A stretch of 20,633 nucleotides of DNA from a virus (IMGVR_UViG_2606217106_000021), one strand, 5' to 3'; numbered from the stretch's first letter, positions 1-20,633 are shown. The notes: a model not told the origin generated them from the letters alone. Translations and numbers: made by a program.

Positions 1-171
1 TCAATAAATCCCATCATTGCGATCAACCTCATCCTTAACCATTGATGCGAGCAGTTCTTCCAGTTTCTGCGCTGATAGCTTTACCTGGTGATCTTCAGCA
101 TCTTCCCGGGCTATTGTGGTTCGCGAAGTGGCTGATTTTGCTGACATCACCACAGGGGGCAGACGGACCAT
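1..171 (-). CDS. Hypothetical small protein (about 56 aa if started at MVRLPP...; the six-frame ORF runs 1..282)
   Basis: Minus-strand ORF ending in TGA at 1-3. An internal ATG at 169-171 is preceded by GGAGG about 10 nt upstream. The longer 93-aa version overlaps the hairpin after the tfa fragment, so the short start is preferred. No recognisable motif. Confidence 0.25.
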   Translation of the reverse strand: MVRLPPVVMSAKSATSRTTIAREDAEDHQVKLSAQKLEELLASMVKDEVDRNDGIY

Positions 172-237
172 TGAACCATGGCCTCCGGAACAAATAAGGG
201 CAAAAATAACAACCACTATCGAAAGCTCACAAACTAA

Positions 238-271
238 CCGCAGCACGTTCCTGCATACGACGTGTCTGCGG
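238..271. terminator. Imperfect hairpin (ccgcagcacg ... cgtgtctgcgg) just downstream of the tfa fragment; diverged copy of the hairpin at 1288-1320
   Basis: Inverted repeat read directly from the sequence; the arms carry a one-base bulge. It lies about 15 nt past the stop of the 286..555 ORF. Confidence 0.35.
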
Positions 272-285
272 CATAATCCCAATGA

Positions 286-555
286 TTACTCCCTGACAGG
301 ATTTGCAGGCCACTCAATATCAGGTGCAGTTGATGTATCAACACGATTCAACAATACCCGATATTTATTCCATGCCTCCAGCAACGATCTTTCTTCCTCC
401 GTTGCGATTTCCAGATCTACAGCATCCTGCAGTGGCGCAATATACTCACTGAATTCCTGGATGTAGAACTGTGTGGTGACGGTCTTCCAGCCATTCGGCT
501 CCTGCTGTATCGAAGCATACCAGGCTATTTCAATATCGCTATGCTGCGGCAGCAT
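286..555 (-). pseudogene. Tail fibre assembly protein C-terminal fragment (tfa remnant, 89-aa ORF)
   Basis: The C-terminal ~55 aa ([50 protein letters not shown]) are near-identical to the C-terminus of the full Tfa at 1335..1919. The N-terminal ~35 aa are unrelated. DNA of about 236-450 repeats about 1285-1500. Confidence 0.6.
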
Positions 556-611
556 TTAACCCCTTGTAATTCATCGCCATAATTGATTTAATTCACAAAT
601 AAAACTATAAC

Positions 612-1280
612 ATGGTGAAATCAATGAAAAAAAACACAGATGATGGGGCTAAAATTTACACACCACTTACCCTAAAGCTTTATGACTGGTGGGTTTTGGG
701 AGTATCAAATCGGCTTGCATGGGGATGTCCTACAAAGGAACACCTTCTTCCACACTTTCTGGAACATGTAGGTAACAACCATCTGGATATTGGTGTTGGA
801 ACTGGGTTTTACCTTACTCACGTACCTGAGAGTAGTCTGATATCTTTAATGGATTTGAACGAAGCTAGCCTGAACGCGGCATCTACAAGGGCTGGGGAAT
901 CAAAAATTAAACATAAAATTAGCCATGATGTTTTTGAACCTTATCCCGCGGCGTTACATGGTCAATTTGATTCCATTTCCATGTTTTACCTTCTTCACTG
1001 CCTGCCTGGAAATATATCTACAAAAAGCTGTGTAATACGCAATGCGGCGCAGGCCTTAACTGACGATGGAACTCTATACGGAGCCACAATTCTTGGCGAT
1101 GGAGTTGTGCACAATAGCTTCGGTCAAAAACTGATGCGCATTTACAATCAGAAAGGCATCTTTTCAAACACAAAAGATTCCGAAGAAGGCTTAACACATA
1201 TACTCTCAGAGCATTTCGAGAATGTTAAAACCAAGGTTCAAGGTACTGTAGTAATGTTTTCCGCTTCAGGGAAAAAATAG
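612..1280 (+). CDS. Class I SAM-dependent methyltransferase (222 aa), cargo gene
   Basis: Only long ORF on the plus strand. It has the SAM-binding motif I signature LDIGVGTGFY. The gene is AT-rich relative to its neighbours, has an AT-rich upstream region (556-611) and ends 8 nt before the 11-bp hairpin at 1288-1320. An alternative start is at 624. From memory, the DLP12 prophage of E. coli K-12 has a methyltransferase pseudogene (ybcY) between tfa fragments. Confidence 0.75.
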   Translation: MVKSMKKNTDDGAKIYTPLTLKLYDWWVLGVSNRLAWGCPTKEHLLPHFLEHVGNNHLDIGVGTGFYLTHVPESSLISLMDLNEASLNAASTRAGESKIKHKISHDVFEPYPAALHGQFDSISMFYLLHCLPGNISTKSCVIRNAAQALTDDGTLYGATILGDGVVHNSFGQKLMRIYNQKGIFSNTKDSEEGLTHILSEHFENVKTKVQGTVVMFSASGKK

Positions 1281-1287
1281 CATCCAA

Positions 1288-1320
1288 CCGCAGCACGTTC
1301 TTGCTTAAGACGTGCTGCGG
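1288..1320. terminator. Perfect 11-bp stem hairpin between the convergent methyltransferase (+) and tfa (-) genes; probable bidirectional terminator
   Basis: ccgcagcacgt-tcttgcttaag-acgtgctgcgg is a perfect inverted repeat. On the minus strand a T-run (tattttttcc) follows about 8 nt after the stem. Confidence 0.5.
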
Positions 1321-1334
1321 CATAATCCCAATGA

Positions 1335-1919
1335 TTACTCCCTGACAGGGTTCGTAGGCCACTCAATATCAGGTGCAGTTGATGTATCAACACGGTTCAG
1401 CAACACCCGATACTTTTTCCAGGCTTCCAGCAATGAGGTTTCTTCCTCCGTTGCAATTTCCAGATCTGCAGCATCCTGAAGCGGCGCAATATGCTCACTG
1501 GCTACCTGCATCAGGTTGTTTTTTGTTTCTTCCGCCTCCCGGATCCGGAACAGTTTTTCTGCTTCTGCATCTTTCACCCAGGTTGTGCCGTTCCACTTCT
1601 GAAACTCCCCTTCTGGCGATAACCAGGTAACATTTTCCGGTAATAAGCCGAGTTCAGAAATAAATAACGCGTCGCCGGAAGCTACGTCATAAACCGTTTT
1701 ACCCCGATGATCTTCAACGAGATGCCACGATGCCTCATCACTGTTGAAAACAGCCACAAAGCCAGCCGGAATATCTGGCGGTGCAATATCGGTACTGTTT
1801 GCTGGCAGACCTGTATGAGGCGGAATATATGCGTCACCTTCACCAATAAATTCATTAGTTCCGGCCAGCAGATTATAAATTTTTATGGTCCGTGCTTGTT
1901 CACTCATTCTGAATGCCAT
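1335..1919 (-). CDS. tfa: Tail fibre assembly protein Tfa (194 aa)
   Basis: Near full-length identity to lambda Tfa as I recall it ([78 protein letters not shown]...), same 194-aa length. Its ATG overlaps the stf stop as TAATG at 1917-1921. Confidence 0.93.
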
Positions 1920-4900
1920 TATGCAAGCCTCACAATATAGTTAAATGCGATGTTTTTGACGGTGTTTTCCGCGTTACCCGCAGCGTTAACGGTGATGGTG
2001 TGTCCATGTGAACCAATCGCAACGGAGTGCGTATGCGCACCAATACCTACAGTATGTGCATGTGCGCCAGAACTTGCTGCAGTACCAGACAGCGAGTGGG
2101 TATGAGCACCTGCTGACTGTGTCTGAATACGTTGATAATACGATCTATAGGAAGAAGTCCCCGGGCTTACTTGATACTGTGAATTCTGGACATAAGTGAA
2201 CCCACCGCCATCATAAAATGCTAACGCAGAACCGCCGCCTCCTGGCCAACGAATACCATTACCATGAGTATGAACACCGGCAGACCCCGTAGAGCCACTC
2301 AGACTGTGCGTATGCGCCCCGGTGTTATTCGTGGATTTAGTGCCGTAATCAAACGACGATGTGGTTTTCGTCCCCAAATCCGTACTGGATGCGCTGGCGC
2401 TGTGGGTATGCGATTTAATGCCGTCCTGTTCCTGAGACAATACGGCCCGACCACTGGCAGGTTTGCCCTTAATCGTCCAGCCACGCATATCAGGGATCAC
2501 GCCTGACGGATAAGCGGCTGCAAGTTTCGGGTAGGCAGATTTGTTAAAAGTCTGCCCCTGCATCAGGGCATAACCAGACGGAACGGTATCTGATGGCCAC
2601 GGGATTGGTGCGCCAACTGGGTAGCTTTCTGGTGGAAGATTTTTCGAGGTATAAACTTCTGCCCAGTCTTCCTCAAAACCATAACCGTCTCTTGAAGAAC
2701 GGTAGAACAGACCACGATTTCTGTAATGCGCCTTCATCTGCAGGGTCCGGCAACTTCCGACTCCGGTATAGAAGTTAACCAGAATATAGCTGTCGCCAGA
2801 GCGGGTGACATTGTAAGCGCCTGATTCGGCATTCCAGGGAACGGCTCCATCCGAATCCGCATAAGCCCCCGTCGAACGTCGGGCAAATGCACCAATATTT
2901 TCCGACGTGAGGTTAATATCCGCCGAGCCATCAAACTTAACACCGTTAATTTTTGGGGCTGCCGCAAGTTTCGTCGCGGTATCGGCGTTCCCCTTCAGTG
3001 CCCCGGTGATCCCATCAGTAACAGACAACGGACCTGAAATAGTCCCTCCAGTCGTTGGCAGCGCTCCAATATCTGATGGTGTAGGTTTCTGATGTGAGCT
3101 ATACATCGTATAAACAACACCACCGGTAACGCTGGAAGGCTTACTCGCTGAATATGTTGGCGAGGTATAAATAGAAACTGACGCATTTGTAGTACAATCC
3201 CAATGGATATTTACACTCGTCGCATAATTGCCAATCTCAACGTAAATATCATATGTATCGCCGGATGTGTTGATCCAGGCGAAATTCGTTAATCCGACGG
3301 CTGTACGCTTCCACAAAGCTCCGGTAATCCCTTTGGGCTTTCCATTGCCTGCTCGTAGAACCAGTTCTGAAATGCCTGCCTGCTGTGGGGAGCCGACGTT
3401 GTAACCAGCGCCACCAATCAATGCGATGTAAACGATGGAACTCGCTTGTGGCATGGTAACCGTTGCCAGTTTGAACCACCCTGCCCCGCCAGAGAAAGAG
3501 ATCGTTACTGAATTTAAAGTGCCAATATCTTTCGGTGTTAATGTTATATCCGCAGTCAGTGCTTTCCCGTTAACTTTTCGGTTAGATGGTACCCTGCCAT
3601 TCGCATTGTCATTCGCTGCTTTAACTGCCTTCGGTGTCGCGGCAAGCGTTTCAGATGTGCTGTTGGTCGCACTGCTGAGCTGTACTATCCCCTTTTTCGT
3701 CGTACTTGCATCCTCAAGCGCCACGGCGGATGCAATATCCTCTGCCCGTTTTGCCGCTGTCTCGGCGCGCGTTGCCGCGGATTCCGCCGTACTTTTGCTC
3801 TGTGCTGCCGCCGTCGCACTGCCAGCTGCCTCTGTCGCCTTCGTGGATGCTGTCGTGGCGCTGCCCTTCGCTGCTGACGCCTGTCTGGTCGCCTCATCTT
3901 TTGAAGCTGACGCCGATGATGCCGATGACGCCGCCGAACTGGCGGACGATGCGGCAGCCGTTTTTGAGGATTCTGCGCTGGTTTCCGACGCTTTCGCGTT
4001 CGTCTCGGATGTCTTCGCTGCGGAAGCAGACCTTGCTGCTGCACTGGCCTGTTCAGTGGCTTTGCCAGCCTTCGTTGTGGCTGTTGAAGCGGATGATGCG
4101 GCGCTTTCTGCCGATTTTCCGGCGGCGGTGGCACTGGCTGAGGCCTGCCCGGCACTTGTTGACGCGGCACTGGCAGATGATGCAGCCGCTGTTTTTGAGC
4201 CTGCCGCAGCTGAGGCACTCTGTCCCGCTGCCGTTTCAGAAGACCTGGCGTTCGTCTCGGACGTCTTTGCCGCCTTCGCGGAATTTCCTGCCGCCGTTGC
4301 CGAGGAAGCTGCACTACTGGCACTTGATGATGCATTCGTTTCTGAAGATTTCGCTGCCTCTTTTGAGGCCGCCGCACCCCGTGCCGAGGTGGCAGCTTCT
4401 GACGCCTTCGTGGTCGCTGTGGATGCAGAAGTGGCTGCCGATTTTTGTGATGCTGCGGCATTCGTTTCTGACGTTTTCGCGGCACTGGCGCTGGTAGCTG
4501 CCGCGCTTTTTGATGACTCTGCAGCAGCAGCACTTTTTGCTGCTTCACGGGCCTTTGTCGATGCCGTTCCTGCGCTGGAAGACGCTGACTGAGCCGACGA
4601 CGCGGCCTGTCCGGCTGGCGTGCTGGCGGCACGTGCTGAGGCTGCAGCATCGGTTGCATGAGTTGCCGCCTCGCTGGCTGATGCACTGGCATCGCTGGCT
4701 GATTTTTTCGCGGCTGCCGTATTCTGTGCAACCGCGGAGGCGTTACGTGACACCTCTTCCACCATCTGCTCAAAGCGGCGCAGTGCCTCCGGTCGGACAT
4801 CATCCTCCGTCATGGCACCGAGAAAATCATTCAGCGTACCTGGTCTGGAACCTTCATAGACGGTAATGGTCCCGGCATGTGAAGGCGGAAAACCTTCAAC

Positions 4901-5089
4901 CAGCAGGGTGACGCTGTACTGACCATGCTCAACATCCATGCTGTAACGTCCGGCTTCATCCGGATTTTCAGAGGCCACCGTGTTCACCACCACCGTGCTG
5001 CTGGTTCGTCTGGCCTTCAGCACAATGGTGCAGTTCTGTACTGGTTTTCCTGTGCCATCTTTAAGCACGCCAGAAATTTTTACTGTCAT
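1919..5089 (-). CDS. stf: Side tail fibre protein Stf (1056 aa), unsplit
   Basis: The N-terminal ~120 aa ([22 protein letters not shown]...[14 protein letters not shown]) and the C-terminal ~250 aa (HxH repeats, ...[24 protein letters not shown]) match lambda Stf as recalled. A long Ala/Ser/Thr-rich repetitive central region accounts for the spurious antisense ORFs. The middle of the protein (about residues 480-800) does not match my recollection of lambda. Confidence 0.9.
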
Positions 5090-5103
5090 ACTTTTCCACC
5101 AAT

Positions 5104-5135
5104 AAAAAAAGCCCGCAGCAGTGACGCCACGGGCT
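5104..5135 (-). terminator. Hairpin plus T7 run immediately upstream of the stf start (minus-strand sense)
   Basis: Minus strand reads agcccg-(14-nt loop)-cgggct followed by ttttttt, ending about 15 nt before the stf ATG. The stem is only 6 bp with a large loop, so it is of modest strength. Confidence 0.4.
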
Positions 5136-5240
5136 TCAGGACAGTGTAACTTTACGTTTCCTCAAACGCAGTTCACCCCATAAAGTGGATGAACCTGCGT
5201 ATCATAACAATATTTACAGAAGATAAATCGGCGTCTGTTG

Positions 5241-6164
5241 TCAGAAACGGTAACGGGAAGAAGCCACCACTCCTTCAGACAACGCCTGTGCATCCTTAAT
5301 GGCTCCATAGCAACGAATCCCCTCTGCTGCCGTATTCCCCAGCACCAGCGTGCCCTCCGGCAGATAACGTTTTTCGGTACCGTCCTCTGCCACATAAGAC
5401 GTTTTCGCTACCACAATGGCCAGATCGCCGTAATACCCCTTGAAGGATACCACTGCGCCCAGATCTTTCACTGCCGTTTCGAGTTGTGAATTTGAACCGC
5501 GACGGGTATCCATTTTTTCGCGGAAAAGCTTAAAGCCATTCAGCAGACGCCAGACGGTACCGTCCATAATGGCAATATTCACAAGACCACTGGCCTGATC
5601 ACAGAAAAGGTCGATATCATATGTCGGGTCGAACGTGTCACGATCCTGTTTTGACCACTCCTTACCGCTACCTTGTATGATGTTATTCTTCGTCGATCGG
5701 CCAAAATCGACTTCAATTTTCTCGAACTGGTCTCCTTCCATCGTATATTTGCCATACAGCACGGCATTCACCGCCTGCATTTCTTCCACCTGCACAATAG
5801 CGTGCTCTTCCTGTTTGAGGTTATCAGTGATGATACGCAGACGACGGTAGGCCGGGTCGTTCAGCTGAGCCGGATCTTCACCGGGAAGGCGCTCAACCGC
5901 CTGCTGGTAATTAAATTCGTGTTTCGGCTTGACGTAGCCAGGACGCAACACGCGGGTTTCACCACCACGATGGCGCAGCACTTTTCCTTCAACGATCGGG
6001 GAGACATAGGCCGCCACCGGCGTTTTTCCGGTAATTTTGTCCAGCATCACCTCTTCGGTGTGGAAATTCACCGTACGGCGGAAAAACAGCTCCAGAAATA
6101 GCGCACGGAATTTAACTTTTTGTTCGGTATAACCGAGTAACTGGCGGGTCGTAAACAATCCCAT
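5241..6164 (-). CDS. E: Major capsid protein E, C-terminally truncated (307 aa, lambda E is 341 aa)
   Basis: Matches lambda E over most of its length (YVSPIV.G.V.R.RGG, PGYVKPKHE, QVEEMQAV.AVL.GKYTM, DTRRGSNS.LETAVKDLG, GDVAIVV). It ends ...SSRYRF* where lambda continues for about 35 more residues. Confidence 0.85.
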   Translation of the reverse strand: MGLFTTRQLLGYTEQKVKFRALFLELFFRRTVNFHTEEVMLDKITGKTPVAAYVSPIVEGKVLRHRGGETRVLRPGYVKPKHEFNYQQAVERLPGEDPAQLNDPAYRRLRIITDNLKQEEHAIVQVEEMQAVNAVLYGKYTMEGDQFEKIEVDFGRSTKNNIIQGSGKEWSKQDRDTFDPTYDIDLFCDQASGLVNIAIMDGTVWRLLNGFKLFREKMDTRRGSNSQLETAVKDLGAVVSFKGYYGDLAIVVAKTSYVAEDGTEKRYLPEGTLVLGNTAAEGIRCYGAIKDAQALSEGVVASSRYRF

Positions 6165-6221
6165 AAATCAGTTCCTTTCATTCAGAAATCAGTCAGGCCA
6201 CCATGGTGGCCTGATAACGTG

Positions 6222-6569
6222 TTACGGCAGAGCCGCGTGACTCAGGGCTGTGCCGGCAAAGGCATTTGCCTTTTTGTGTTCATCCACACTGTCAGGCCAG
6301 CGGATTGCCTCCGTCGCAAAGGTCCCCGACTTGTAATAGGTCAGCACCGTCTCTGTGCCTTCAAGCGGCAGTACCAGTATGCCAACCGCACTACCGGCTT
6401 TCTGTCCATCCCAGACCACCAGTTTCCCGGTGGCTTCATCCAGCATCAGGGGCGTCAGAGCCGGTGTTGCAGAAGAAATCCCGCTGCTGCCTGTGGCGGT
6501 ATGAGCCGGATCATTACCAGCAAAAATACGTACTTCCGCACGCTGTTCAGTGATGGTTTTCGTCACCAT
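6222..6569 (-). CDS. D: Head decoration protein D (115 aa)
   Basis: Matches lambda D as recalled: DPAHTAT, TPLMLD, KLV(A)WDG, AVGIL, TYYKSGTF, AFAGTA. Confidence 0.85.
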   Translation of the reverse strand: MVTKTITEQRAEVRIFAGNDPAHTATGSSGISSATPALTPLMLDEATGKLVVWDGQKAGSAVGILVLPLEGTETVLTYYKSGTFATEAIRWPDSVDEHKKANAFAGTALSHAALP

Positions 6570-6605
6570 TTTGTTAAAACCTCATATTGATGGTCAGCAC
6601 TGACT

Positions 6606-6944
6606 TCATGGCATGGCCATGAGCATTTTCACGTCCGCATCACCGTCTGCTGACGTCTGTGACACGCCACCCCGCACCGCTGCCGGTGAATGATTCGCCA
6701 TGAAATGTTCAAACAGGGCGGTTGTGGATGCAGAGACCGGTTCGGCCTTACCTGATCCCGCAGCCAGCACAGCCCGGGCGTTCTCCACGGTCATTCCCGG
6801 GCAGGCCGCCAGTTTTTCAGCCTGCGCTTCTGCCCCTTTTGCCTCATCCAGGGCCATGATCTGATCACGAAGTGAGGGCCCGGCATCCGCCAGTGGTGCA
6901 GCCGCCAGGATCGGGCGGGCTTTTTCCACCGTCATCTCCGGCAT
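6606..6944 (-). CDS. Nu3-like scaffolding segment (112 aa), in a different frame from C
   Basis: Contains PGMTVEKARPILAAAP and a second PGMTVENARAVLAAGS copy, resembling the lambda C/Nu3 C-terminal region (ETPGMTVKTARRILAAAP). It overlaps the C stop by 13 nt and is out of frame with it. Confidence 0.55.
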   Translation of the reverse strand: MPEMTVEKARPILAAAPLADAGPSLRDQIMALDEAKGAEAQAEKLAACPGMTVENARAVLAAGSGKAEPVSASTTALFEHFMANHSPAAVRGGVSQTSADGDADVKMLMAMP

Positions 6945-7546
6945 CGCCGCCAGCGTTGACCGGCATAGCTGACATGGCTCATCATCACGCCAATGGAGCC
7001 GATACGGGATGTCTGGGTAACCAGCCGTCGGGAGCAGGCCGACGCCAGCAGCATGGCTGCAGAACAGGCCGTGTCATTGCACAGTGCCCAGACCGGCTTC
7101 TGCTGACGGAGGCGGTAAATCATGTCAGCGCAGTCAAACGCGCCGGCGGCCTGCCCGCCCGGACTGTCAATGTCCAGCAGTACGCCCCGCACCTGGCTAT
7201 CCGCCATTGCCTGCTGAAGACAGGCGACAATACCGTCATAGCCTGTCATTCCGGAAAATGGCCGCATACCACCCAGCCGGTGCACCAGCGTGCCGGTCAC
7301 CGGCAGTACAGCAATACCGTTCACCACCCGGTAAACACGGGCCGGTCGTTTACCTCCGGCCATGTACTCGTCCGTTTCAGCCAGCATCCCGGGAGCATCA
7401 AGCTGTACCTGCTGTTGCGGTACCGAAAGACTTGCTGCCCCCATCTCGCGCCCCAGCGCGCAAAAGAAAACCCGCGCATAGGCGGGCTCCAGAAGCAGCG
7501 GTTCATTGAATGCTGCTGCAATAATGTGTGAAAGATTACGTCTCAC
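6932..7546 (-). CDS. C: Head maturation protease C, protease domain only (204 aa, lambda C is about 439 aa); probably disrupted
   Basis: The N-terminus (AFNEPLLLEPAYARVFFCAL ... GMTGYDGI ... GVLLDIDSPGG ... AGAFDCAD ... KPVWAL ... RRLVTQT.R.GSIGVM) matches lambda C (S49-type). The ORF stops where lambda C continues for more than 200 residues. Confidence 0.7.
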   Translation of the reverse strand: MRRNLSHIIAAAFNEPLLLEPAYARVFFCALGREMGAASLSVPQQQVQLDAPGMLAETDEYMAGGKRPARVYRVVNGIAVLPVTGTLVHRLGGMRPFSGMTGYDGIVACLQQAMADSQVRGVLLDIDSPGGQAAGAFDCADMIYRLRQQKPVWALCNDTACSAAMLLASACSRRLVTQTSRIGSIGVMMSHVSYAGQRWRRCRR

Positions 7547-9128
7547 GTGGTGTTGTCTCCTCTTCCGGCCTGCGACTCTCCGCTATCTGCTGCTGATACG
7601 CCTGCGCTATCCACACCGGACGTGAGAGTCCGGCTTTTTGCCGCTCAGCAGATTCCCTGACCTGCTGGCGGAAAATGTCCTGATAATCCTCGCCCATCAG
7701 CGCCAGCTCTTTCTCATACGTGCTCAGTCCGGCCTCAATGCGCATCACTGATTCCTGGACTTCCTTGAGCCCGTCAATGGCCATTCTTCCGGCACCAATC
7801 CACTCTGCCCGTGACCAGGCTGATCGCGCCTGATAAAAATCAAAACGTGCCCGTGGCGGACGAATAATCCCCCGAAGAAGTGCCTCTTCCAGCCAGCAGG
7901 AAAACATCTGCGTGGCCAGCCGGGCCGCAATAAATTTTCGTCGCCCCATAAAATAGCGCCACGACTCATTGGCGGAGGCGCGGGCACTTGAGTAACTGAC
8001 CTTCGAGTAATCACGGGACAACTGTTCGTAGGAAACGCCAAGACCGGCGGCGATATACCGCAGCAGCGCCTGTTCAAGCGCAGAAAATCCATTGTCTGAA
8101 TCCTGCGCAGTCTGTAGTTTCAGATCATCACCAGGGAAAAGGTGCGGAATTTTGACACCGCCCAGTGTCACGTTATTCGTGTCATACCAGCTGGAGAACT
8201 TCTCCAGAATATTAATAAGCGGATTATCCTTCTGCTCCTGTGGCGCGCCGGCGATATATTCAAAGGCCTTTTCGGTATCAAGTTCACTTTCAATCGTCGC
8301 TGCATACATCGCCTTCACTATGGCCGACTGAAGCTGTGTTGCCTGCAGGGAATCGAGCATCTTCAGCCGTTCCATGACGCTGTAAAACTGATTAGCCCCA
8401 CGGGTCTGCCCGTCCTCCACCGGCTCGAAAATATGCAGCATGGCCGGACGCCCGGTGGGAAGTTCACGCGGGATCCGTTCCCATCGTCCACTCCCAGAGA
8501 ACGGAAAATCATCCTCACAAATATGGTACGCGACGGCACGGCCATATCGATCGACCTCCACACCGGCCCGCAGAAAACGGTTCCCCATACCGTGTCCAGG
8601 CGTGTCCACCCGTTTCGGACTCACGGCTTTAAAACGCGTACGGAATAACTGCGTGGTTTCCGTATCCCAGACCGGCTGCACAAAGATTTCGCCGTTAAAC
8701 GCATGAACGCCCACACCTTCACGGATAAATTCCGTGAACGTGCGTTTTCCTTCCACGTCGATCTCGCCAAACATCCCTTCGGCGTATTCCGACCAGGCCG
8801 CCTCCACCTCATCGACAAAGCTTTTTGCTGCGGTCTCCCGCATCCCCAGCCAGCGCCAGTTCGGACGGTAGCTGATCAGAAACATATGCCCGACAATATG
8901 ATCCTTATGCAGGGCCACCGCATTAGCCGCTATCCCGTTATTGCGCACCAGATCATCTGCCCGGGCATTCCCCAGACGCAACGCAGGCAGCAGGGCTGCA
9001 TCGGCACTCTGCGCCGGTGGCAACCACTCCGCCATTTGCCCGCCAAATCCTGCGCCGCCCCCGTTGTAGCTGAGACTCTCACGAAGCGGAACGCCGTTCA
9101 CATCAATCAGGACAGGCGTTCGTTTCAT
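7536..9128 (-). CDS. B: Portal protein B (530 aa)
   Basis: Matches lambda B along its length (GNARADDLVRNNG.AANA, FEPVEDGQTRGAN.FYSVME, LQSAIVKAMYAATIESELDT, LLRYIAAGLGVSYEQLSR, GRMAIDGLKEVQE). Lambda B is 533 aa. Confidence 0.93.
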   Translation of the reverse strand: MKRTPVLIDVNGVPLRESLSYNGGGAGFGGQMAEWLPPAQSADAALLPALRLGNARADDLVRNNGIAANAVALHKDHIVGHMFLISYRPNWRWLGMRETAAKSFVDEVEAAWSEYAEGMFGEIDVEGKRTFTEFIREGVGVHAFNGEIFVQPVWDTETTQLFRTRFKAVSPKRVDTPGHGMGNRFLRAGVEVDRYGRAVAYHICEDDFPFSGSGRWERIPRELPTGRPAMLHIFEPVEDGQTRGANQFYSVMERLKMLDSLQATQLQSAIVKAMYAATIESELDTEKAFEYIAGAPQEQKDNPLINILEKFSSWYDTNNVTLGGVKIPHLFPGDDLKLQTAQDSDNGFSALEQALLRYIAAGLGVSYEQLSRDYSKVSYSSARASANESWRYFMGRRKFIAARLATQMFSCWLEEALLRGIIRPPRARFDFYQARSAWSRAEWIGAGRMAIDGLKEVQESVMRIEAGLSTYEKELALMGEDYQDIFRQQVRESAERQKAGLSRPVWIAQAYQQQIAESRRPEEETTPRET

Positions 9129-9331
9129 AACCTCACTCCCAGCGGACGACGGCGACGTCGGGTTGTCCCCAGTACCGACTCCGCATCATTGATCGCCCGG
9201 TTAAGCTCATCCAGAGAAGCCGCCGTATATTCAATTCTGCGACCATCTTTCTGGACAGACACCACCCGTTTACCGGTTAATAAATCAAGGCGCGCCTGAC
9301 GCAGCGCCTGTAGTTCAGCGACTGTAACCAT
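9125..9331 (-). CDS. W: Head-tail joining protein W (68 aa)
   Basis: [23 protein letters not shown] matches lambda W ([23 protein letters not shown]). Its stop overlaps the B start as ATGA. Confidence 0.8.
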
Positions 9332-11408
9332 TCACTCCTCCGGACAGCTTCGCTGCCAGTTCTTTAAGGGTTGGCCGGGTCGTCTCTTCTTCCCGGGATT
9401 TTGCCAGTACAGCCAGATCAAGCTGCCAGCGTTGCACGGACACACGTAATGCCGCATAGGCATACACCAGGCAGTCCAGCGCTTCGTTACGCCGCTTTTT
9501 GTTATCCCACAGCAGACGCATCTTTCCTTTTTCCCACTTCTCCACAAGCTCTTCCGCGACCAGTTGCTGCGCCTCTGTCTGCGAAAAAATCTCCGGATCA
9601 TCAGGAAAATGGATGGCATACGACGTGGCTTCATCCGCAGGAGTGGGATCGGCTTTCATACGGGCATAGAGAATTTCTTTTGCGGTGTCCGTCCCCACTT
9701 CACACAGATACACGCCCCGCTGATTGCGGGTTTTCGGCATGGTGATCACCGGCTTGCCATAGACAGATGCGCCTTTTACCGGCAGCACCCGGAAAACACC
9801 GTGTTTTTTTGACCTCTGATAGACAATTTCACCATCGATCCCCCCGGTGTCCCAGCAGACACGGGAAATGGTCATTTCGGTTCCGTCTGCATGGCAGTAT
9901 TTTTTGTTGATCGCCGCATCCACACGTAACAGCGTCTCTTCCTCATCGGGACGGCCCATAATGATGATTTTATCCACCAGAAAAGCTTCCTCTCCCGGTG
10001 CCCATCCCCAGACATACATCTCAAAACGGTTTCGCTGCGAGTCAATGCCCGCCGTCAGATAAACCACCCGGGCTGGCACCGCCGCCGTGTAATGCACGAC
10101 CTTATCCATCAGTACCTGGTGATCGAGTTTTTCGCCCACGGCCTCTTCAGAAGCCACATCGGATGCTTTCGCGATTTCAGTTTTCACAGCATCAAGATGT
10201 ACGGGTGATATATCAGGGTATTTACGCTGCAGTGTCTGAGGGACACGGACAAGGATCCCTGATATATTCTGTGCCACTCGCTGAAAGATGTAGGTAAATA
10301 ACTCCGTCTCGAGGACAAGGCCTTCCTCACGAGCATTTTTCAGCTCCTGTGCATCGGCCTGTGCCTTCGTCAGTCGGTAACGTTCGTAATCAATGGTGCC
10401 GGGCTGAAGGTCTGATTCGCTGGCAGCCCTCAAATCCTCGATCTCTTTACGGAGTTTTTCGTTTTCAATATCAGCTTCCCTCTGCGCATACCACTGAATG
10501 GCAGCAGTTGTATCAAAAACTGATTCAGTCCCTTTCCCTCCACCAGAAACTAGTGGTAACCCCTGACTCTGCCAGGCGGTGACTGATGCCGGACTTCCAC
10601 CGTGACACTGCGCCGCCAGCCCGGCAAGGTCAGCACGGAACTGCTGTACCATTGCAAGAAATGCTGCTGGCTGCTGGGCGTAACTGGCATTCGTCATATC
10701 GAATTCCCCCTGCATCCAGCATATCGCCAGCAAAACGTTTTTCGGGTTTTTCTGCAATGCTGCCTTCGTGCGGAAAAGCAGATCCTGATATAACGGCTTA
10801 CCCACTCCCCAGCGAGCCGAATCCTGACTGGCCCCCGTGGACTCGCTGAATGTCCCCTCCGTGCCCTGGGTGAATGCCGAACCACCACGACAGCATGGTA
10901 CCAGCAGGATCCCCGCGTTATTAGGGATATACGGAAGCAGTTTTTTGGCAATATGTAAGCCCTGTCCGACACAGCCGTACTGCCCTTTGCTCAGGTCAGC
11001 CCGGGGATGGTTAATCGTACTCATATCCTGAACATCATGCAGACAATGGTCAGCAGGAATGATGTCGTTAAATACGCATACTTCACCACCGGGAGTCACT
11101 GTGTTACGACGGGCCAGTTGCTTAATGCGCGGATGGGGCGCATCGTATGAATCCGGCAGCGGAAGCCCTTCACCGTAAGCCATGGCATTGGACTGCCCGG
11201 CCAGTACGATGACGTAGTACCAATCCGGCTCAGTTGCACCACTGACCACCACATCACCTTCTGCTGCAATCGCCTGCATCAGGGTATAAGGGGTTATGGC
11301 CACCGGACTACCAAACGGCTGCCAGCCCTCCTTCAGTTTTTGTGTCAGTCGTTTCGCAAGGTCTGACGGCGATACCGCCCTGACCACGTCATAGTGTTTA
11401 AATGCCAT
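9315..11408 (-). CDS. Chimeric ORF (697 aa): DUF1737-like/SASA-type esterase-like N-terminal region joined to the terminase large subunit (gpA) C-terminal domain
   Basis: Residues about 430-697 match lambda gpA's C-terminal region ([64 protein letters not shown]). Residues about 60-300 carry a [11 protein letters not shown] motif typical of SASA/SGNH sialate O-acetylesterases, which I associate with prophage nanS-p genes. A coiled-coil-like linker (about 310-420) matches neither. No terminase ATPase N-terminal region and no upstream nu1 are present. Confidence 0.7.
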
Positions 11409-11630: not shown

Positions 11631-11635
11631 GCCCA

Positions 11636-11885
11636 CAAGAAAACCCCTCCGGAGAGGGGCTAAAGCCGCGTATCTGTATCATCATGCACATGGTGCCGGG
11701 TGCCTCCCGGTGAGTTCAGCCCGGTGCCACTAAACCCGCGTCATTCTCGTTTTGATAATCAGAGATTATACCGTCACCAGTCGCCCCTCCGCTCAGGGGG
11801 ATTCACCATGCGAAATTTTTTTAACAAATGCCCAGTCTGACAGGCAACTGTCAACTTACTGAATTGTGAGCAACATAGCATTTAA
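11636..11885. repeat. Repeat unit A of a diverged direct repeat (partner at about 12122-12340)
   Basis: Shares identical blocks with unit B: aaaacccctccggagaggggct, catggtgccgggtgcctcccggtga, cccctccgcNcagggggattcaccatg, ttttaacaaa, gtcaac, ctgaattNtgag. Sequence between the blocks has diverged. Confidence 0.7.
11637..11660 (-). terminator. Minus-strand rho-independent terminator (repeat unit A)
   Basis: Minus strand reads cccctc-tccg-gagggg followed by ttttcttg. It is back to back with the plus-strand terminator at 11601-11630. Confidence 0.55.
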
Positions 11886-11934: not shown

Positions 11935-12121
11935 TGGAAGGATAGCGGTCATGTGATGCCGGTTTCCCGGTAACTCAGCACCGGTATCTGAGTCAACGTT
12001 TTCTCTACTGGGTCATTTCCGATACGCCCTGCCTGCTGACAGGCTTTCATCACATCTGAAAATATAGCACCCTGACTGATACTGTAGTACCTAAGGTTCC
12101 AGAAACTGTGATGTATCCGGC

Positions 12122-12148
12122 ACAGAAAAGCCCCTCCGGAGAGGGGCT
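12122..12148 (-). terminator. Minus-strand rho-independent terminator (repeat unit B)
   Basis: Minus strand reads gcccctc-tccg-gaggggc, a perfect 7-bp GC stem, followed by ttttctg. Confidence 0.6.
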
Positions 12149-12340
12149 GGAGAGTGGCGCTATGTGCCATTGCATGGTGCCGGGTGCCTCCCGGTGAATT
12201 CAGTACCAGCACCTGAATCCGCGATTATCCCATATACCTACTCGCTGATTGCCCCTCCGCACAGGGGGATTCACCATGCCAGTTTCTTTTAACAAACTCC
12301 CCGCAAACCAGACAACAGTCAACCGCCTGAATTATGAGAC
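12122..12340. repeat. Repeat unit B (partner of 11636-11885)
   Basis: Same conserved hairpin blocks as unit A. The hairpin cccctccgcacaggggg differs from unit A only in the loop (a versus t). Confidence 0.7.
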
Positions 12341-12383: not shown

Positions 12384-12460
12384 TGGCGCGTTGTACTGGA
12401 TTCGAACCAGTGACCGATTGCTTAGAAGGCAATTGCTCTGTCCGGCTGAGCTAACAACGC
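12384..12460 (-). tRNA. argO: tRNA-Arg (anticodon UCU)
   Basis: Reverse complement folds as a cloverleaf: acceptor GCGTTGT/ACAACGC, T-loop GGTTCGAATCC, anticodon loop CTTCTAA, 3' GCCA. The symbol is by analogy with the ileZ-argN-argO cluster of Stx-type lambdoid phages and is not verified. Confidence 0.85.
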
Positions 12461-12473
12461 ATGATGCAGATAA

Positions 12474-12550
12474 TGGACCGCCATCGGGGACTTGAACCCC
12501 GCGCAGCCAGCTTCGAAGGCTGGCGCTCTTTCCTGATGAGCTAATGGCGG
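12474..12550 (-). tRNA. argN: tRNA-Arg (anticodon UCG)
   Basis: Reverse complement: acceptor CCGCCAT/ATGGCGG, T-arm CGGGG-TTCAAGT-CCCCG, anticodon loop CTTCGAA, 3' TCCA. Symbol by analogy only. Confidence 0.8.
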
Positions 12551-12557
12551 TATGTGA

Positions 12558-12633
12558 TGGTGGCCCTTGCTGGATTTGAACCAGCGACCTGGCGATTATG
12601 AGTCGCTCGCTCTCACCACTGAGCTAAAGGGCC
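12558..12633 (-). tRNA. ileZ: tRNA with CAU anticodon, Ile2 (lysidine) type
   Basis: Reverse complement GGCCCTTTAGCTCAGTGGTGAGAGCGAGCGACTCATAATCGCCAGGTCGCTGGTTCAAATCCAGCAAGGGCCACCA closely resembles E. coli ileX-type tRNA (anticodon loop CTCATAA). Symbol by analogy only. Confidence 0.8.
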
Positions 12634-12661: not shown

Positions 12662-13375
12662 TCAATAATCAAGCCCTTGCCTGGATACATATCTGTCTGG
12701 CGGGAAGCCATAATAGCGGTGAAATACAGAAATAAAGTAGGACCTGCTTGAATAACCGCATTTTTCTGCTATAGCCTGTCCATATCCATGCCGGGAACAT
12801 AACATATTTACAGCAACACGCATCCGCTCTTCCAGCAACAAGCGACTGAACATGCCCCCTTCATTTTTCAGTTTTGTCTTTAACAAACTCTCACTCATAT
12901 GCAACTGTAGAGCAATCGCACCAAGCGTCCAGCTTGCTGATATATCTGTCTGAATTATCGCCCTGACTTTGGCACTTATGCTGGATAAACATCCACTTAA
13001 AAACAATGACATCCGTTCATCTGTTTCAAACAGAGACAGGCAGGCCATCATAAGAAACATATCCGTGGCCTCTCCGGAAAATCCCTGGCTGGTAATTAAA
13101 GCCGCAGCCAACGCAGGATTGTTGGGTTCCAGCAACAGGTAAAGCGGAATGTCAGTCAGACGAGTCCTCGTCAGCTTATGCTGACTTTCCAGATATTGAC
13201 TTACGACGGATTCGCTTATATCGACAATTTTAACTTTGCCATAATGCATAAGGAAAAGCTCCCTGATGCATTTGGTGGCCAGAACAACTGAGCCTGGCTT
13301 AAGTGACAACGTATCCTTTTCAAGAAAAATATTAATTGGGGAGCAAACCATGATAACTGAACAGACAACAGCCAT
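12662..13375 (-). CDS. AraC/XylS-family transcriptional regulator, AppY-like (237 aa)
   Basis: C-terminal AraC-type HTH (AIAEKCGYSSRSYFISVFHRYYGFPP). The N-terminus MAVVCSVIMVC...KIVDI resembles AppY (MDYVCSVVFIC...RIVDI, recalled from memory). AT-rich; the 13376-13509 gap upstream could hold its own promoter. Confidence 0.85.
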   Translation of the reverse strand: MAVVCSVIMVCSPINIFLEKDTLSLKPGSVVLATKCIRELFLMHYGKVKIVDISESVVSQYLESQHKLTRTRLTDIPLYLLLEPNNPALAAALITSQGFSGEATDMFLMMACLSLFETDERMSLFLSGCLSSISAKVRAIIQTDISASWTLGAIALQLHMSESLLKTKLKNEGGMFSRLLLEERMRVAVNMLCSRHGYGQAIAEKCGYSSRSYFISVFHRYYGFPPDRYVSRQGLDY

Positions 13376-20483: not shown

Positions 20484-20633
20484 GGTGACAGCCCCTATGT
20501 TGAATTCAATGAACTCACCACCAAGGCTTTCCACGACCATATAGGTGGTGAGACGTACAGGGGTGGAAATACCGGTCAACATAGAACCCGGCCCAACCGA
20601 AGTTGGCCCTGCACGCCCCACCATAATTTGGGC

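What the first reader, a model, noticed from the sequence alone, without database searches (positions are those of the whole stretch)
5090..5245. Deletion scar: major capsid gene joined almost directly to the side tail fibre gene
E is cut about 35 codons short, and only about 150 bp, including a terminator-like hairpin, separate it from stf. The lambda genes normally between them (FI, FII, Z, U, V, G, T, H, M, L, K, I, J, lom; more than 10 kb) are absent. Together with the C and A lesions this marks a tail-less, defective prophage that nevertheless keeps an intact stf-tfa pair. Retained fibre genes in cryptic prophages can serve as a reservoir for host-range recombination with superinfecting phages.
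Basis: partly seen in the sequence, partly recalled or inferred. Interest (0 to 1): 0.5.

Follow-up and report, generated by a model that had tools for sequence, protein, structure and literature searches.

The report
Tail-gene deletion scar in defective prophage
A 13-kb deletion in a decaying lambda-like prophage of E. coli removed every tail gene and joined the shortened capsid gene to the normal spacer in front of the side-tail-fibre gene; this is real but ordinary prophage decay.

Summary
All genes lie on the minus strand. The capsid gene E' (5241-6164, 307 aa) stops 151 bp before stf (1919-5089, 1056 aa), which is followed by tfa (1335-1919). Against an intact sister prophage at the same ompW/trp site in E. 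coli O104:H4, the window is collinear on both sides of one point junction. That junction is a 4-bp microhomology, GGTA, at 5249-5252. The missing 12,988 bp carry FI, FII, Z, U, V, G, T, H, M, L, K, I, a small ORF, J and nearly all of lom. E' loses its last 37 codons and ends on lom's own last two codons and stop. The 151-bp spacer, including the hairpin, is the unchanged lom-stf spacer with lom's terminator. It was not created by the deletion. The same 80-mer junction is present in 11 independent contigs, so it is not an assembly error. No complete RefSeq E. coli genome carries it. Three further deletions (inside C, A::Nu1, Nu1::SASA esterase) confirm a dead late operon. E. coli K-12 cryptic prophages DLP12 and Qin carry analogous scars. 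The idea that stf serves as a recombination reservoir is plausible from the literature but was not tested here. Interest is low.

The parts
1335..1919 (-). tfa, tail fibre assembly gene, 194 aa, full length
   Evidence: ORF. Pfam Caudo_TAP_N and Caudo_TAP. Same length as WP_000885576.1 in the intact O104:H4 prophage.
1919..5089 (-). stf, side tail fibre gene, 1056 aa, full length
   Evidence: ORF. Pfam phage_tail_N and Collar. Same length as WP_000216488.1. Viable lambdoid phages match at 92-95% identity over 70-78% of the stf-tfa query (window 1335-5252).
5090..5240 (-). Native lom-stf intergenic spacer, 151 bp, unchanged by the deletion
   Evidence: 0 mismatches to the O104:H4 prophage spacer, L001 8140-8290. 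No Rfam family and no promoter-like site. Folds more stably than shuffles, z = -3.4.
5101..5137 (-). Intrinsic-terminator-like hairpin plus T-run, the lom terminator, just upstream of stf
   Evidence: 13-pair stem with 7 GC pairs, tail TTTTATTGGT. Phage Ayreon's record annotates a terminator between lom and stf.
5241..5248 (-). Remnant of lom: the end of its last two codons plus the TGA stop, which now terminates E'
   Evidence: Left-flank identity runs to 5252, inside the annotated Ail/Lom CDS of L001 (8291-8890). Both lom and E' end in ...YRF*.
5249..5252 (.). Deletion junction J1: 4-bp microhomology GGTA shared by both parental flanks; 12,988 bp missing
   Evidence: The exact 80-mer spanning it is in L002-L012.
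5253..6164 (-). E', truncated major capsid gene. The whole ORF is 5241-6164 (307 aa). Codons 1-304 lie here, Tyr305 is encoded by the microhomology, and the last 37 codons are lost.
   Evidence: 99.5% identity to the O104:H4 prophage over 5249-6958. 92.5% DNA identity to phage 21 over the capsid gene (gene 7) and the adjacent head-decoration gene. About 66% DNA identity over the part that aligns and 59% protein identity to lambda E.
6222..6569 (-). Head decoration gene (D/shp-like), 115 aa, intact
   Evidence: Pfam HDPD. Identical codons to the reference.
6606..7546 (-). C', head protease/scaffold gene with a 565-bp internal, frameshifting deletion (junction J2 at 6958/6959, no microhomology)
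   Evidence: Reference C is 501 aa. Here 196 collinear aa are followed by 8 out-of-frame aa and a stop. A separate 112-aa ORF carries the C-terminal frame.
7536..9331 (-). Portal gene B (7536-9128, 530 aa) and W (9125-9331, 68 aa), both intact
   Evidence: Pfam Phage_portal_2 and gpW.
9315..11408 (-). 697-aa triple fusion ORF SASA-esterase'::Nu1'::A'. J3 is at 10145-10148 (CTTC, 1,126 bp lost, removing the A ATPase domain). J4 is at 10581-10582 (GA, 5,265 bp lost, removing lysis genes and the cos side).
   Evidence: Pfam DUF1737, SASA, Phage_Nu1 and GpA_nuclease, with no GpA_ATPase. Junctions.

Best explanation
The region is the scar of one illegitimate, microhomology-mediated deletion of 12,988 bp inside the late operon of a lambda-like prophage. 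The prophage has a phage-21-type head module and sits at the ompW/yciE-trp site of E. coli. The break joined codon 305 of the major capsid gene to the last two codons of lom. Everything downstream of the break is the unaltered parental sequence: lom's stop, lom's terminator, the 151-bp lom-stf spacer, then full-length stf and tfa. The deletion removed FI, FII, all tail genes Z to J, and lom. With three further deletions (inside C, A::Nu1, Nu1::SASA esterase), the prophage cannot package DNA, build heads or build tails. The scar has no function of its own and E' is a pseudogene. stf-tfa survive because they lay beyond the breakpoint and the event is recent. Shown here: the breakpoints, the lost gene content, reproducibility across assemblies, and the order of events (J1-J3 before J4). 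Inferred: that it was a single event, that the mechanism was replication slippage or illegitimate recombination at GGTA, and that E' is non-functional.
For: Window 1-5252 matches the O104:H4 2009EL-2071 prophage L001 at 3051-8302 (98.7%). Window 5249-6958 matches L001 21287-22996 (99.5%). The two alignments overlap by 4 bp, GGTA. The interval missing from the window is annotated in L001 as FI, head-tail joining, tail, U, tail, G, T, tape measure, tail, L, C40 peptidase, tail assembly, hypothetical, J and Ail/Lom. The spacer and lom remnant are 100% identical to that prophage. E' ends ...SSRY|RF* where the reference E continues ...SSRYPKHW... for 37 more residues, and lom ends ...GYRF*. The chromosomal flank is the same in L002 and L001: an ompW remnant, yciE, yciF, yciG, trpA, 99.4% identical. 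The exact 80-mer junction is in 5 NCBI draft assemblies, 3 Logan run assemblies, 2 ENA metagenome scaffolds and 1 IMG/VR contig. There is no IS or other foreign DNA at the junction. A microhomology of 4 bp or more is expected by chance at about 1.6% of random junctions. J3 shows a similar 4-bp microhomology (CTTC) and J4 a 2-bp one. Loci L003, L006 and L007 carry J1-J3 but still hold the 5.3 kb that J4 removed, which shows stepwise decay. Carriers differ by 0-1 SNP between 4704 and 10582. K-12 DLP12 (nohD-aaaD'-tfaD) and Qin (nohA-stfQ-tfaQ), and RM10410 (terminase' joined to tail fibre'), show analogous scars with different breakpoints.
Against: The O104:H4 prophage is a sister, not the parent. 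Its stf-tfa differ in clustered patches (62 of the 66 mismatches in window 1-5252 fall in stf and tfa), so the true parent's interval could differ slightly in length. A single event cannot be told apart from successive deletions that erased earlier junctions. The window appears to stop at a contig end. By arithmetic, window position 20633 corresponds to base 58,769 of the 58,769-bp contig JNRB01000033.1. The early and integration part of the element was therefore not seen.
Confidence: 0.9

Rival explanations
1. The 13-kb gap is the sum of two or more successive deletions, the last of which erased the earlier junctions, rather than one event.
For: The same late operon suffered at least three other independent deletions, and J4 is demonstrably later than J1-J3. 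Repeated deletion is therefore the norm in this element.
Against: No intermediate form turned up. Every contig found through the E' protein or the junction sequence carries exactly the same J1, and no complete RefSeq genome has J1 or J3. One event is the more parsimonious reading.
Confidence: 0.07
2. The junction arose by illegitimate recombination between two different lambdoid prophages (E of one, lom of another), not by deletion within one prophage.
For: In some complete genomes the best matches (99.8%) to the two sides lie in different prophages about 700 kb apart, for example FORC_069. Lambdoid prophages recombine often, and one carrier contig (L003) has the scar module next to ybhB-bioA instead of ompW-trp.
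Against: Both flanks of the window, out to the chromosomal ompW/yciE side and to the SASA/tRNA side, are collinear with a single intact prophage at the same site. An inter-prophage crossover at a 4-bp microhomology would also rearrange hundreds of kb of chromosome.
Confidence: 0.03
3. The juxtaposition is an assembly artefact (a chimeric contig or collapsed repeat).
For: Prophage regions are repeat-rich, and the window apparently ends at a contig end.
Against: The identical 80-mer junction is in 11 contigs from separate samples and pipelines: NCBI isolates, Logan, ENA metagenomes and IMG/VR. The two flanks share only 4 bp, far too little to mislead an assembler.
Confidence: 0.01
4. This is a naturally tail-less functional element, such as a capsid-forming satellite that borrows helper tails, rather than a decayed prophage.
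For: Packaging and head genes are present without tail genes, which superficially resembles capsid-forming PICIs (my own knowledge of that family).
Against: The head and packaging set is itself broken. A lacks its ATPase domain, C is frameshifted by a 565-bp deletion, E lacks 37 C-terminal residues, and the cos side is deleted in this form. Each break point sits inside a gene that is intact in near-identical relatives.
Confidence: 0.01

Closest known systems
Cryptic prophage Qin of E. coli K-12: nohA (Nu1 homologue) directly followed by stfQ and tfaQ
   Same: A lambdoid late operon with a packaging gene abutting side-tail-fibre genes; all head and tail genes between them are gone and tfa is retained. 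The window's tfa and stf C-terminal region is 91-95% identical to tfaQ/stfQ.
   Different: In Qin the breakpoints lie in Nu1 and inside stf, so StfQ is a 320-aa fragment. Here they lie in E and at the end of lom, so stf is full length and W, B and D also survive.
Cryptic prophage DLP12 of E. coli K-12: nohD - aaaD (terminase A pseudogene) - tfaD - ybcY - tfaX - appY
   Same: A terminase fragment joined straight to fibre-assembly genes. The tfa / methyltransferase / tfa-remnant module is the same DNA: window 309-1773 is 96.7% identical to tfaX-ybcY-tfaD.
   Different: DLP12 lost stf as well, and its methyltransferase ybcY is a pseudogene. Here stf is complete and the methyltransferase ORF (612-1280) is open.
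Intact lambdoid prophage at the ompW/trp site of E. coli O104:H4 str. 2009EL-2071 (NC_018661.1, 2,891,000-2,923,000)
   Same: Same insertion site, same flanks and same gene order; 98.7-99.5% identity on both sides of the scar.
   Different: It retains the 12,988 bp of FI-to-lom, the complete C, A and Nu1 genes and the lysis genes. The four deletions together account for about 19.9 kb.
Defective lambdoid prophage pool of E. coli O157 Sakai (Asadulghani et al. 2009, PMC2669165) and lambda x Rac/Qin recombination (De Paepe et al. 2014, PMC3945230)
   Same: Lambdoid prophages with deletions in morphogenesis genes that still exchange DNA with other phages. Lambda acquired markers from the stf-tfa regions of Rac and Qin at about 2x10^-6. 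Most Sakai lambdoid prophages carry morphogenesis defects.
   Different: Those are experimental demonstrations in other prophages. No recombination, expression or induction data exist for this element.

Membership tests
Lambdoid prophage late (packaging-head-tail-fibre) operon | Collinear gene order Nu1-A-W-B-C-D-E-...-stf-tfa on one strand, with matching protein families | tested here: met
   Pfam Phage_Nu1/GpA_nuclease, gpW, Phage_portal_2, Peptidase_S49, HDPD, Phage_cap_E, phage_tail_N/Collar and Caudo_TAP, in that order. Collinear with lambda and with the O104:H4 prophage.
Lambdoid prophage late (packaging-head-tail-fibre) operon | Complete tail module (Z, U, V, G, T, H, M, L, K, I, J) | tested here: not met
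   No tail-family ORF anywhere in window 1-20633. The interval is missing relative to L001.
Deletion scar of a cryptic prophage (as in DLP12 aaaD-tfaD and Qin nohA-stfQ) | Both flanks near-identical to an intact relative up to a single point junction, with no foreign DNA between | tested here: met
   Alignments end at 5252 and start at 5249, sharing GGTA; there is no IS or insert.
Deletion scar of a cryptic prophage (as in DLP12 aaaD-tfaD and Qin nohA-stfQ) | The junction is real, i.e. reproducible in independent assemblies | tested here: met
   The exact 80-mer is in L002-L012, from NCBI, Logan, ENA and IMG/VR.
Deletion scar of a cryptic prophage (as in DLP12 aaaD-tfaD and Qin nohA-stfQ) | The element cannot produce particles | not testable with these tools
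   Inferred from the loss of all tail genes, the A ATPase domain, part of C and the C-terminus of E. Induction and electron microscopy are needed.
Rho-independent (intrinsic) terminator | GC-rich stem-loop immediately followed by a U-run on the transcribed strand | tested here: met
   13-pair stem at 5137..5108 plus a T-run on the minus strand. It is part of the MFE fold. The equivalent site is annotated as a terminator in phage Ayreon. Termination activity was not tested.
Ail/Lom outer-membrane protein gene | A complete beta-barrel ORF of about 200 aa | tested here: not met
   Only the last 8-12 nt, including the stop codon, remain at 5241-5252.
Lambda-type side tail fibre plus assembly chaperone (Stf/Tfa) | Full-length Stf with the N-terminal tail-attachment domain and collar, followed by Tfa | tested here: met
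   1056 aa with PF08400 and PF07484, and 194 aa with PF02413. Lengths equal those of the intact relative. Function and expression were not tested.
Capsid-forming satellite (cf-PICI-like tail-less element) | An intact set of terminase, portal, protease and major capsid genes | tested here: not met
   A lacks GpA_ATPase, C is frameshifted and E is truncated.

The most novel reading that the evidence does not exclude
The tail-less head-fibre module may be more than debris. Copies with no differences over the 5.9 kb from 4704 to 10582 (or over the part of it that shorter contigs cover) occur in carrier contigs from two apparent chromosomal sites (ompW-trp and ybhB-bioA) and next to at least two different early/Q regions. 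The module might therefore be passed between prophages by homologous recombination. It might be kept because its full-length stf-tfa, still downstream of Q in the late transcription unit, supplies fibre alleles, or fibres in trans, to co-resident or superinfecting lambdoid phages.
Probability: 0.06. Interest if true: 0.45.

Novelty: new member of a known kind. Interest (0 to 1): 0.15.

Why it matters
It matters little by itself. It is a cleanly resolved example of how lambdoid prophages decay: a nested series of microhomology deletions whose order can be read from sister contigs. It is useful for annotation. E' (307 aa) and the 697-aa 'terminase gpA endonuclease subunit' are fusion pseudogenes, and the hairpin is lom's terminator. 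The one point of wider interest is that a full-length stf-tfa pair sits in a dead prophage. It is 92-95% identical to the fibres of viable lambdoid phages over 70-78% of the query, which is the substrate shown experimentally (PMC3945230) to recombine into infecting lambda.

Tried and rejected
1. I tried to read the prophage beyond window position 20633 through exact-protein look-ups: RusA, the 205-aa ORF and two versions of the Rha ORF. All returned other prophages or short metagenome scaffolds. The window appears to end at a contig end, so the early/integrase arm was not seen.

2. A scan of GTDB species representatives for the 29-mer junction found nothing. This is uninformative, because E. 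coli has only one representative there.

3. An Rfam scan found no known RNA family in the spacer, and the promoter scan found no sigma-70-like site.

4. I counted synonymous and non-synonymous differences in stf and tfa against the O104:H4 copy (22/18 and 10/5). The differences fall in clustered patches typical of recombination tracts, so I rejected this as a test of selection.

5. The query across J2 against complete genomes was uninformative, because the tool joins the two halves of intact C genes into one place.

6. I rejected the satellite (cf-PICI-like) reading and the IS-mediated deletion reading. The head genes are broken, and no IS sequence lies at any of the four junctions.

Full report
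**What is at 5090-5245.** All relevant genes are on the minus strand. The ORF at 5241-6164 (307 aa) is a lambda-E-family major capsid protein (Pfam Phage_cap_E). The ORF at 1919-5089 (1056 aa) is a side tail fibre with the phage_tail_N and Collar domains. The ORF at 1335-1919 (194 aa) is a tail fibre assembly protein. The distance from the E' stop (5241-5243) to the stf ATG (5087-5089) is 151 bp. This stretch contains a 13-pair GC-rich hairpin (5137..5108) followed by a T-run on the minus strand.

**Breakpoints.** The nearest intact relative I found is a prophage in E. coli O104:H4 str. 2009EL-2071, locus L001.
- It sits at the same chromosomal site: an ompW remnant, then yciE, yciF, yciG and trpA.
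- It has the same left-end module: tail-fibre-assembly remnants, a class I methyltransferase, tfa and stf.
- Window 1-5252 aligns without gaps to L001 3051-8302 (98.7%).
- Window 5249-6958 aligns to L001 21287-22996 (99.5%).
- The two alignments overlap by four bases, GGTA (5249-5252). Nothing foreign lies between them, and 12,988 bp of L001 are missing.
- That interval is annotated as FI, head-tail joining protein (FII), a tail protein (Z), U, the major tail protein (V), G, T, the tape measure (H), M, L, a C40 peptidase (K), a tail assembly protein (I), a small hypothetical gene, J, and the Ail/Lom gene.
- Mapped onto lambda itself, the break falls after Tyr304 of E.
- The head module is phage-21-like: 92.5% DNA identity. 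It is only about 66% identical to lambda over the part that aligns.

**What the junction did to the coding sequence.**
- On the minus strand the sequence reads ...TCT TCC CGT TAC | CGT TTC TGA.
- The reference E continues ...SSRY-PKHWLTVG... for 37 more residues.
- Lom ends ...GYRF*.
- E' therefore keeps residues 1-305, with Tyr305 encoded by the microhomology. It then borrows lom's Arg-Phe-stop in frame.
- lom is reduced to its last 8-12 nucleotides.

**What the 151 bp are.** The spacer and the lom remnant have zero mismatches to the O104:H4 prophage. They are the unaltered lom-stf intergenic region. The hairpin is lom's terminator, and the deposited record of phage Ayreon annotates a terminator at the equivalent place between lom and stf. 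Rfam finds no known RNA family there, and no sigma-70-like promoter was detected. A second stable hairpin at about 5165-5199, without a U-run, is part of the same native spacer.

**Not an artefact.**
- An exact-protein look-up of E' found 16 contigs.
- The 10 contigs returned, plus one IMG/VR contig found with a 29-mer across the junction, all contain the identical 80-mer spanning the junction.
- They come from five NCBI isolate assemblies, three Logan run assemblies and two ENA metagenomes.
- E' is deposited as KDY52176.1 from E. coli 2-460-02_S3_C1.
- The window is 100% identical over 16,164 bases to contig JNRB01000033.1. By arithmetic, window position 20633 is that contig's last base.
- None of 5,426 complete RefSeq E. 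coli genomes has the junction. None has the A::Nu1 junction either. The scar therefore marks a rare lineage.

**The other lesions.**
- J2: a 565-bp deletion inside the S49 protease/scaffold gene C, at 6958/6959, with no microhomology. It shifts the frame after 196 of 501 codons.
- J3: a 1,126-bp deletion at 10145-10148 (CTTC). It fuses a Nu1 fragment to the last 278 codons of A and removes the ATPase domain.
- J4: a 5,265-bp deletion at 10581-10582. It fuses the N-terminal 275 codons of a SASA-family esterase to Nu1 and removes the holin, lysozyme, Rz and the cos side.
- Together J3 and J4 create the 697-aa ORF at 9315-11408.
- Contigs L003, L006 and L007 carry J1, J2 and J3 but still hold the 5.3 kb that J4 removed. 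J4 is therefore the latest event.
- The four deletions total about 19.9 kb.

**Tail genes elsewhere?** None is in the window. To the right of the late region lie three tRNAs, an AraC-family moron, a Q antiterminator, and DUF968, KilA-N, RusA, LexA-like, Dam, PerC-like, replication (HTH_36) and Rha proteins. To the left there are only tfa remnants and a methyltransferase. What lies beyond 20633 could not be retrieved. In every relative seen, that side carries cII, cro, cI and integration genes.

**Mechanism.** The junction is clean and has 4 bp of microhomology. Microhomology of that length or more is expected at about 1.6% of random joins. There is no IS remnant. This points to illegitimate recombination or replication slippage, and J3 shows a similar 4-bp microhomology (CTTC). 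Whether it was a single event is an inference. The scar itself has no function.

**Is the intact stf-tfa pair special?** Probably not. W, B and D are intact too. Carriers differ from the window by 0-1 SNP between 4704 and 10582. The deletions are therefore recent, and point mutations have not yet had time to accumulate. Differences from the O104:H4 copy are clustered in patches in stf and tfa, as expected from recombination. They do not allow a test of selection.

**Comparison with known cases.**
- K-12's cryptic prophages show the same kind of scar.
- In Qin, the order is nohA (Nu1) - stfQ (a 320-aa fragment) - tfaQ.
- In DLP12, the order is nohD - aaaD (A pseudogene) - tfaD - ybcY - tfaX - appY.
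- The window's tfa / methyltransferase / tfa-remnant module is 96.7% identical to tfaD-ybcY-tfaX.
- Strain RM10410 has a partial terminase gene joined to a partial tail fibre gene at the lambda attachment site.
- The breakpoints differ in each case, so there is no hotspot.
- The reservoir idea has experimental precedent. Lambda picks up markers from the stf-tfa regions of Rac and Qin at about 2x10^-6, mainly through Red-beta (PMC3945230). Defective O157 prophages take part in recombination and transfer (PMC2669165).
- Viable lambdoid phages (mEp332, ev099, PhiR30_1 and others) match at 92-95% identity over 70-78% of the stf-tfa query, window 1335-5252. The substrate for such recombination therefore exists. 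Nothing here tests whether it is used.

**A loose end.**
- Contig L003 carries the identical J1-J3 module.
- Its tfa end diverges (29 SNPs between 1362 and 1895) and runs into an AraC gene, IS remnants, then ybhB, bioA and bioB. That is the lambda attachment side, not ompW-trp.
- L004, L005 and L012 share the ompW site but carry a different Q/methylase region beyond 12648.
- This suggests recombination between prophages that moved the scar-bearing module.
- The two-site claim rests on a single short-read contig and needs a closed genome.

**Verdict.** This is an ordinary instance of lambdoid prophage decay and a new member of a well-known kind. Interest is low.

Noticed in passing
window 9315-11408 (-): A 697-aa ORF is a triple in-frame fusion of a SASA-family esterase N-terminus, a Nu1 fragment and the C-terminal nuclease part of terminase A. 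Two separate deletions made it: J3 at 10145-10148 and J4 at 10581-10582. It is deposited as 'terminase gpA endonuclease subunit' (WP_072006177.1).
   Followed up: yes
window 6606-7546 (-), junction 6958/6959: A 565-bp internal deletion in the head protease/scaffold gene C, with no microhomology. It causes a frameshift after codon 196.
   Followed up: yes
L003 14225-20924 versus window 1-1357: The identical E'::lom' / C' / A'::Nu1' module sits in one contig next to AraC - IS remnants - ybhB - bioA - bioB (the lambda attachment side) instead of ompW-trp, with 29 SNPs clustered in tfa. Either prophages recombined or the contig is chimeric. It rests on one contig seen in two samples.
   Followed up: partly
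L030 17679-19926 (E. coli RM10410, NZ_CP042350.1): An independent, more drastic scar at the lambda attachment site: a partial terminase large-subunit gene joined directly to a partial tail fibre gene, followed by tfa. The flank (query: tfa, AraC gene, IS remnants, ybhB) is present in 159 complete genomes; whether they carry the same scar was not checked.
   Followed up: partly
L021 20522-20618 (E. coli CP065611.1): A called 1172-aa product combines Peptidase_S49 (gene C) with tape-measure domains. This is probably another head-to-tail deletion fusion (C::H) in an unrelated prophage.
   Followed up: no
window 309-1773: The tfa / class I SAM methyltransferase (612-1280, + strand, open ORF of 222 aa) / tfa-remnant module is 96.7% identical to K-12 DLP12 tfaD-ybcY-tfaX, where ybcY is a pseudogene.
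   Followed up: partly
window 1378-1576 (-); 11631-11840 and 12118-12308 (-); 20541-20628 (-): Rfam hits above the gathering score: IS009 inside tfa, two copies of sRNA STnc100 between the SASA fusion and the tRNAs, and a C4 antisense RNA (P1/P7-type immunity RNA) just upstream of the Rha-family ORF at the window's right end.
   Followed up: no
window 12384-12633 (-): Three tRNA genes: Arg-TCT, Arg-TCG and a CAT anticodon. ARAGORN calls the last one Met, but the homologous gene is annotated tRNA-Ile in RefSeq. An AraC-family moron lies at 12662-13375.
   Followed up: no
window 5165-5199 (-): A second strong hairpin without a U-run lies in the native lom-stf spacer. The whole 154-nt stretch folds with z = -3.4 against shuffles. 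There is no Rfam family. Lambda's own lom-stf spacer is only 64 bp.
   Followed up: partly
window 3435-4803, both strands: Long ORFs (385 aa on +, 372 aa on - in another frame) overlap the Ala/Ser-rich repeat part of stf. They are by-products of the repetitive GC-rich codons, not genes. A 21-bp indel in this repeat (4683-4703) distinguishes carriers.
   Followed up: partly
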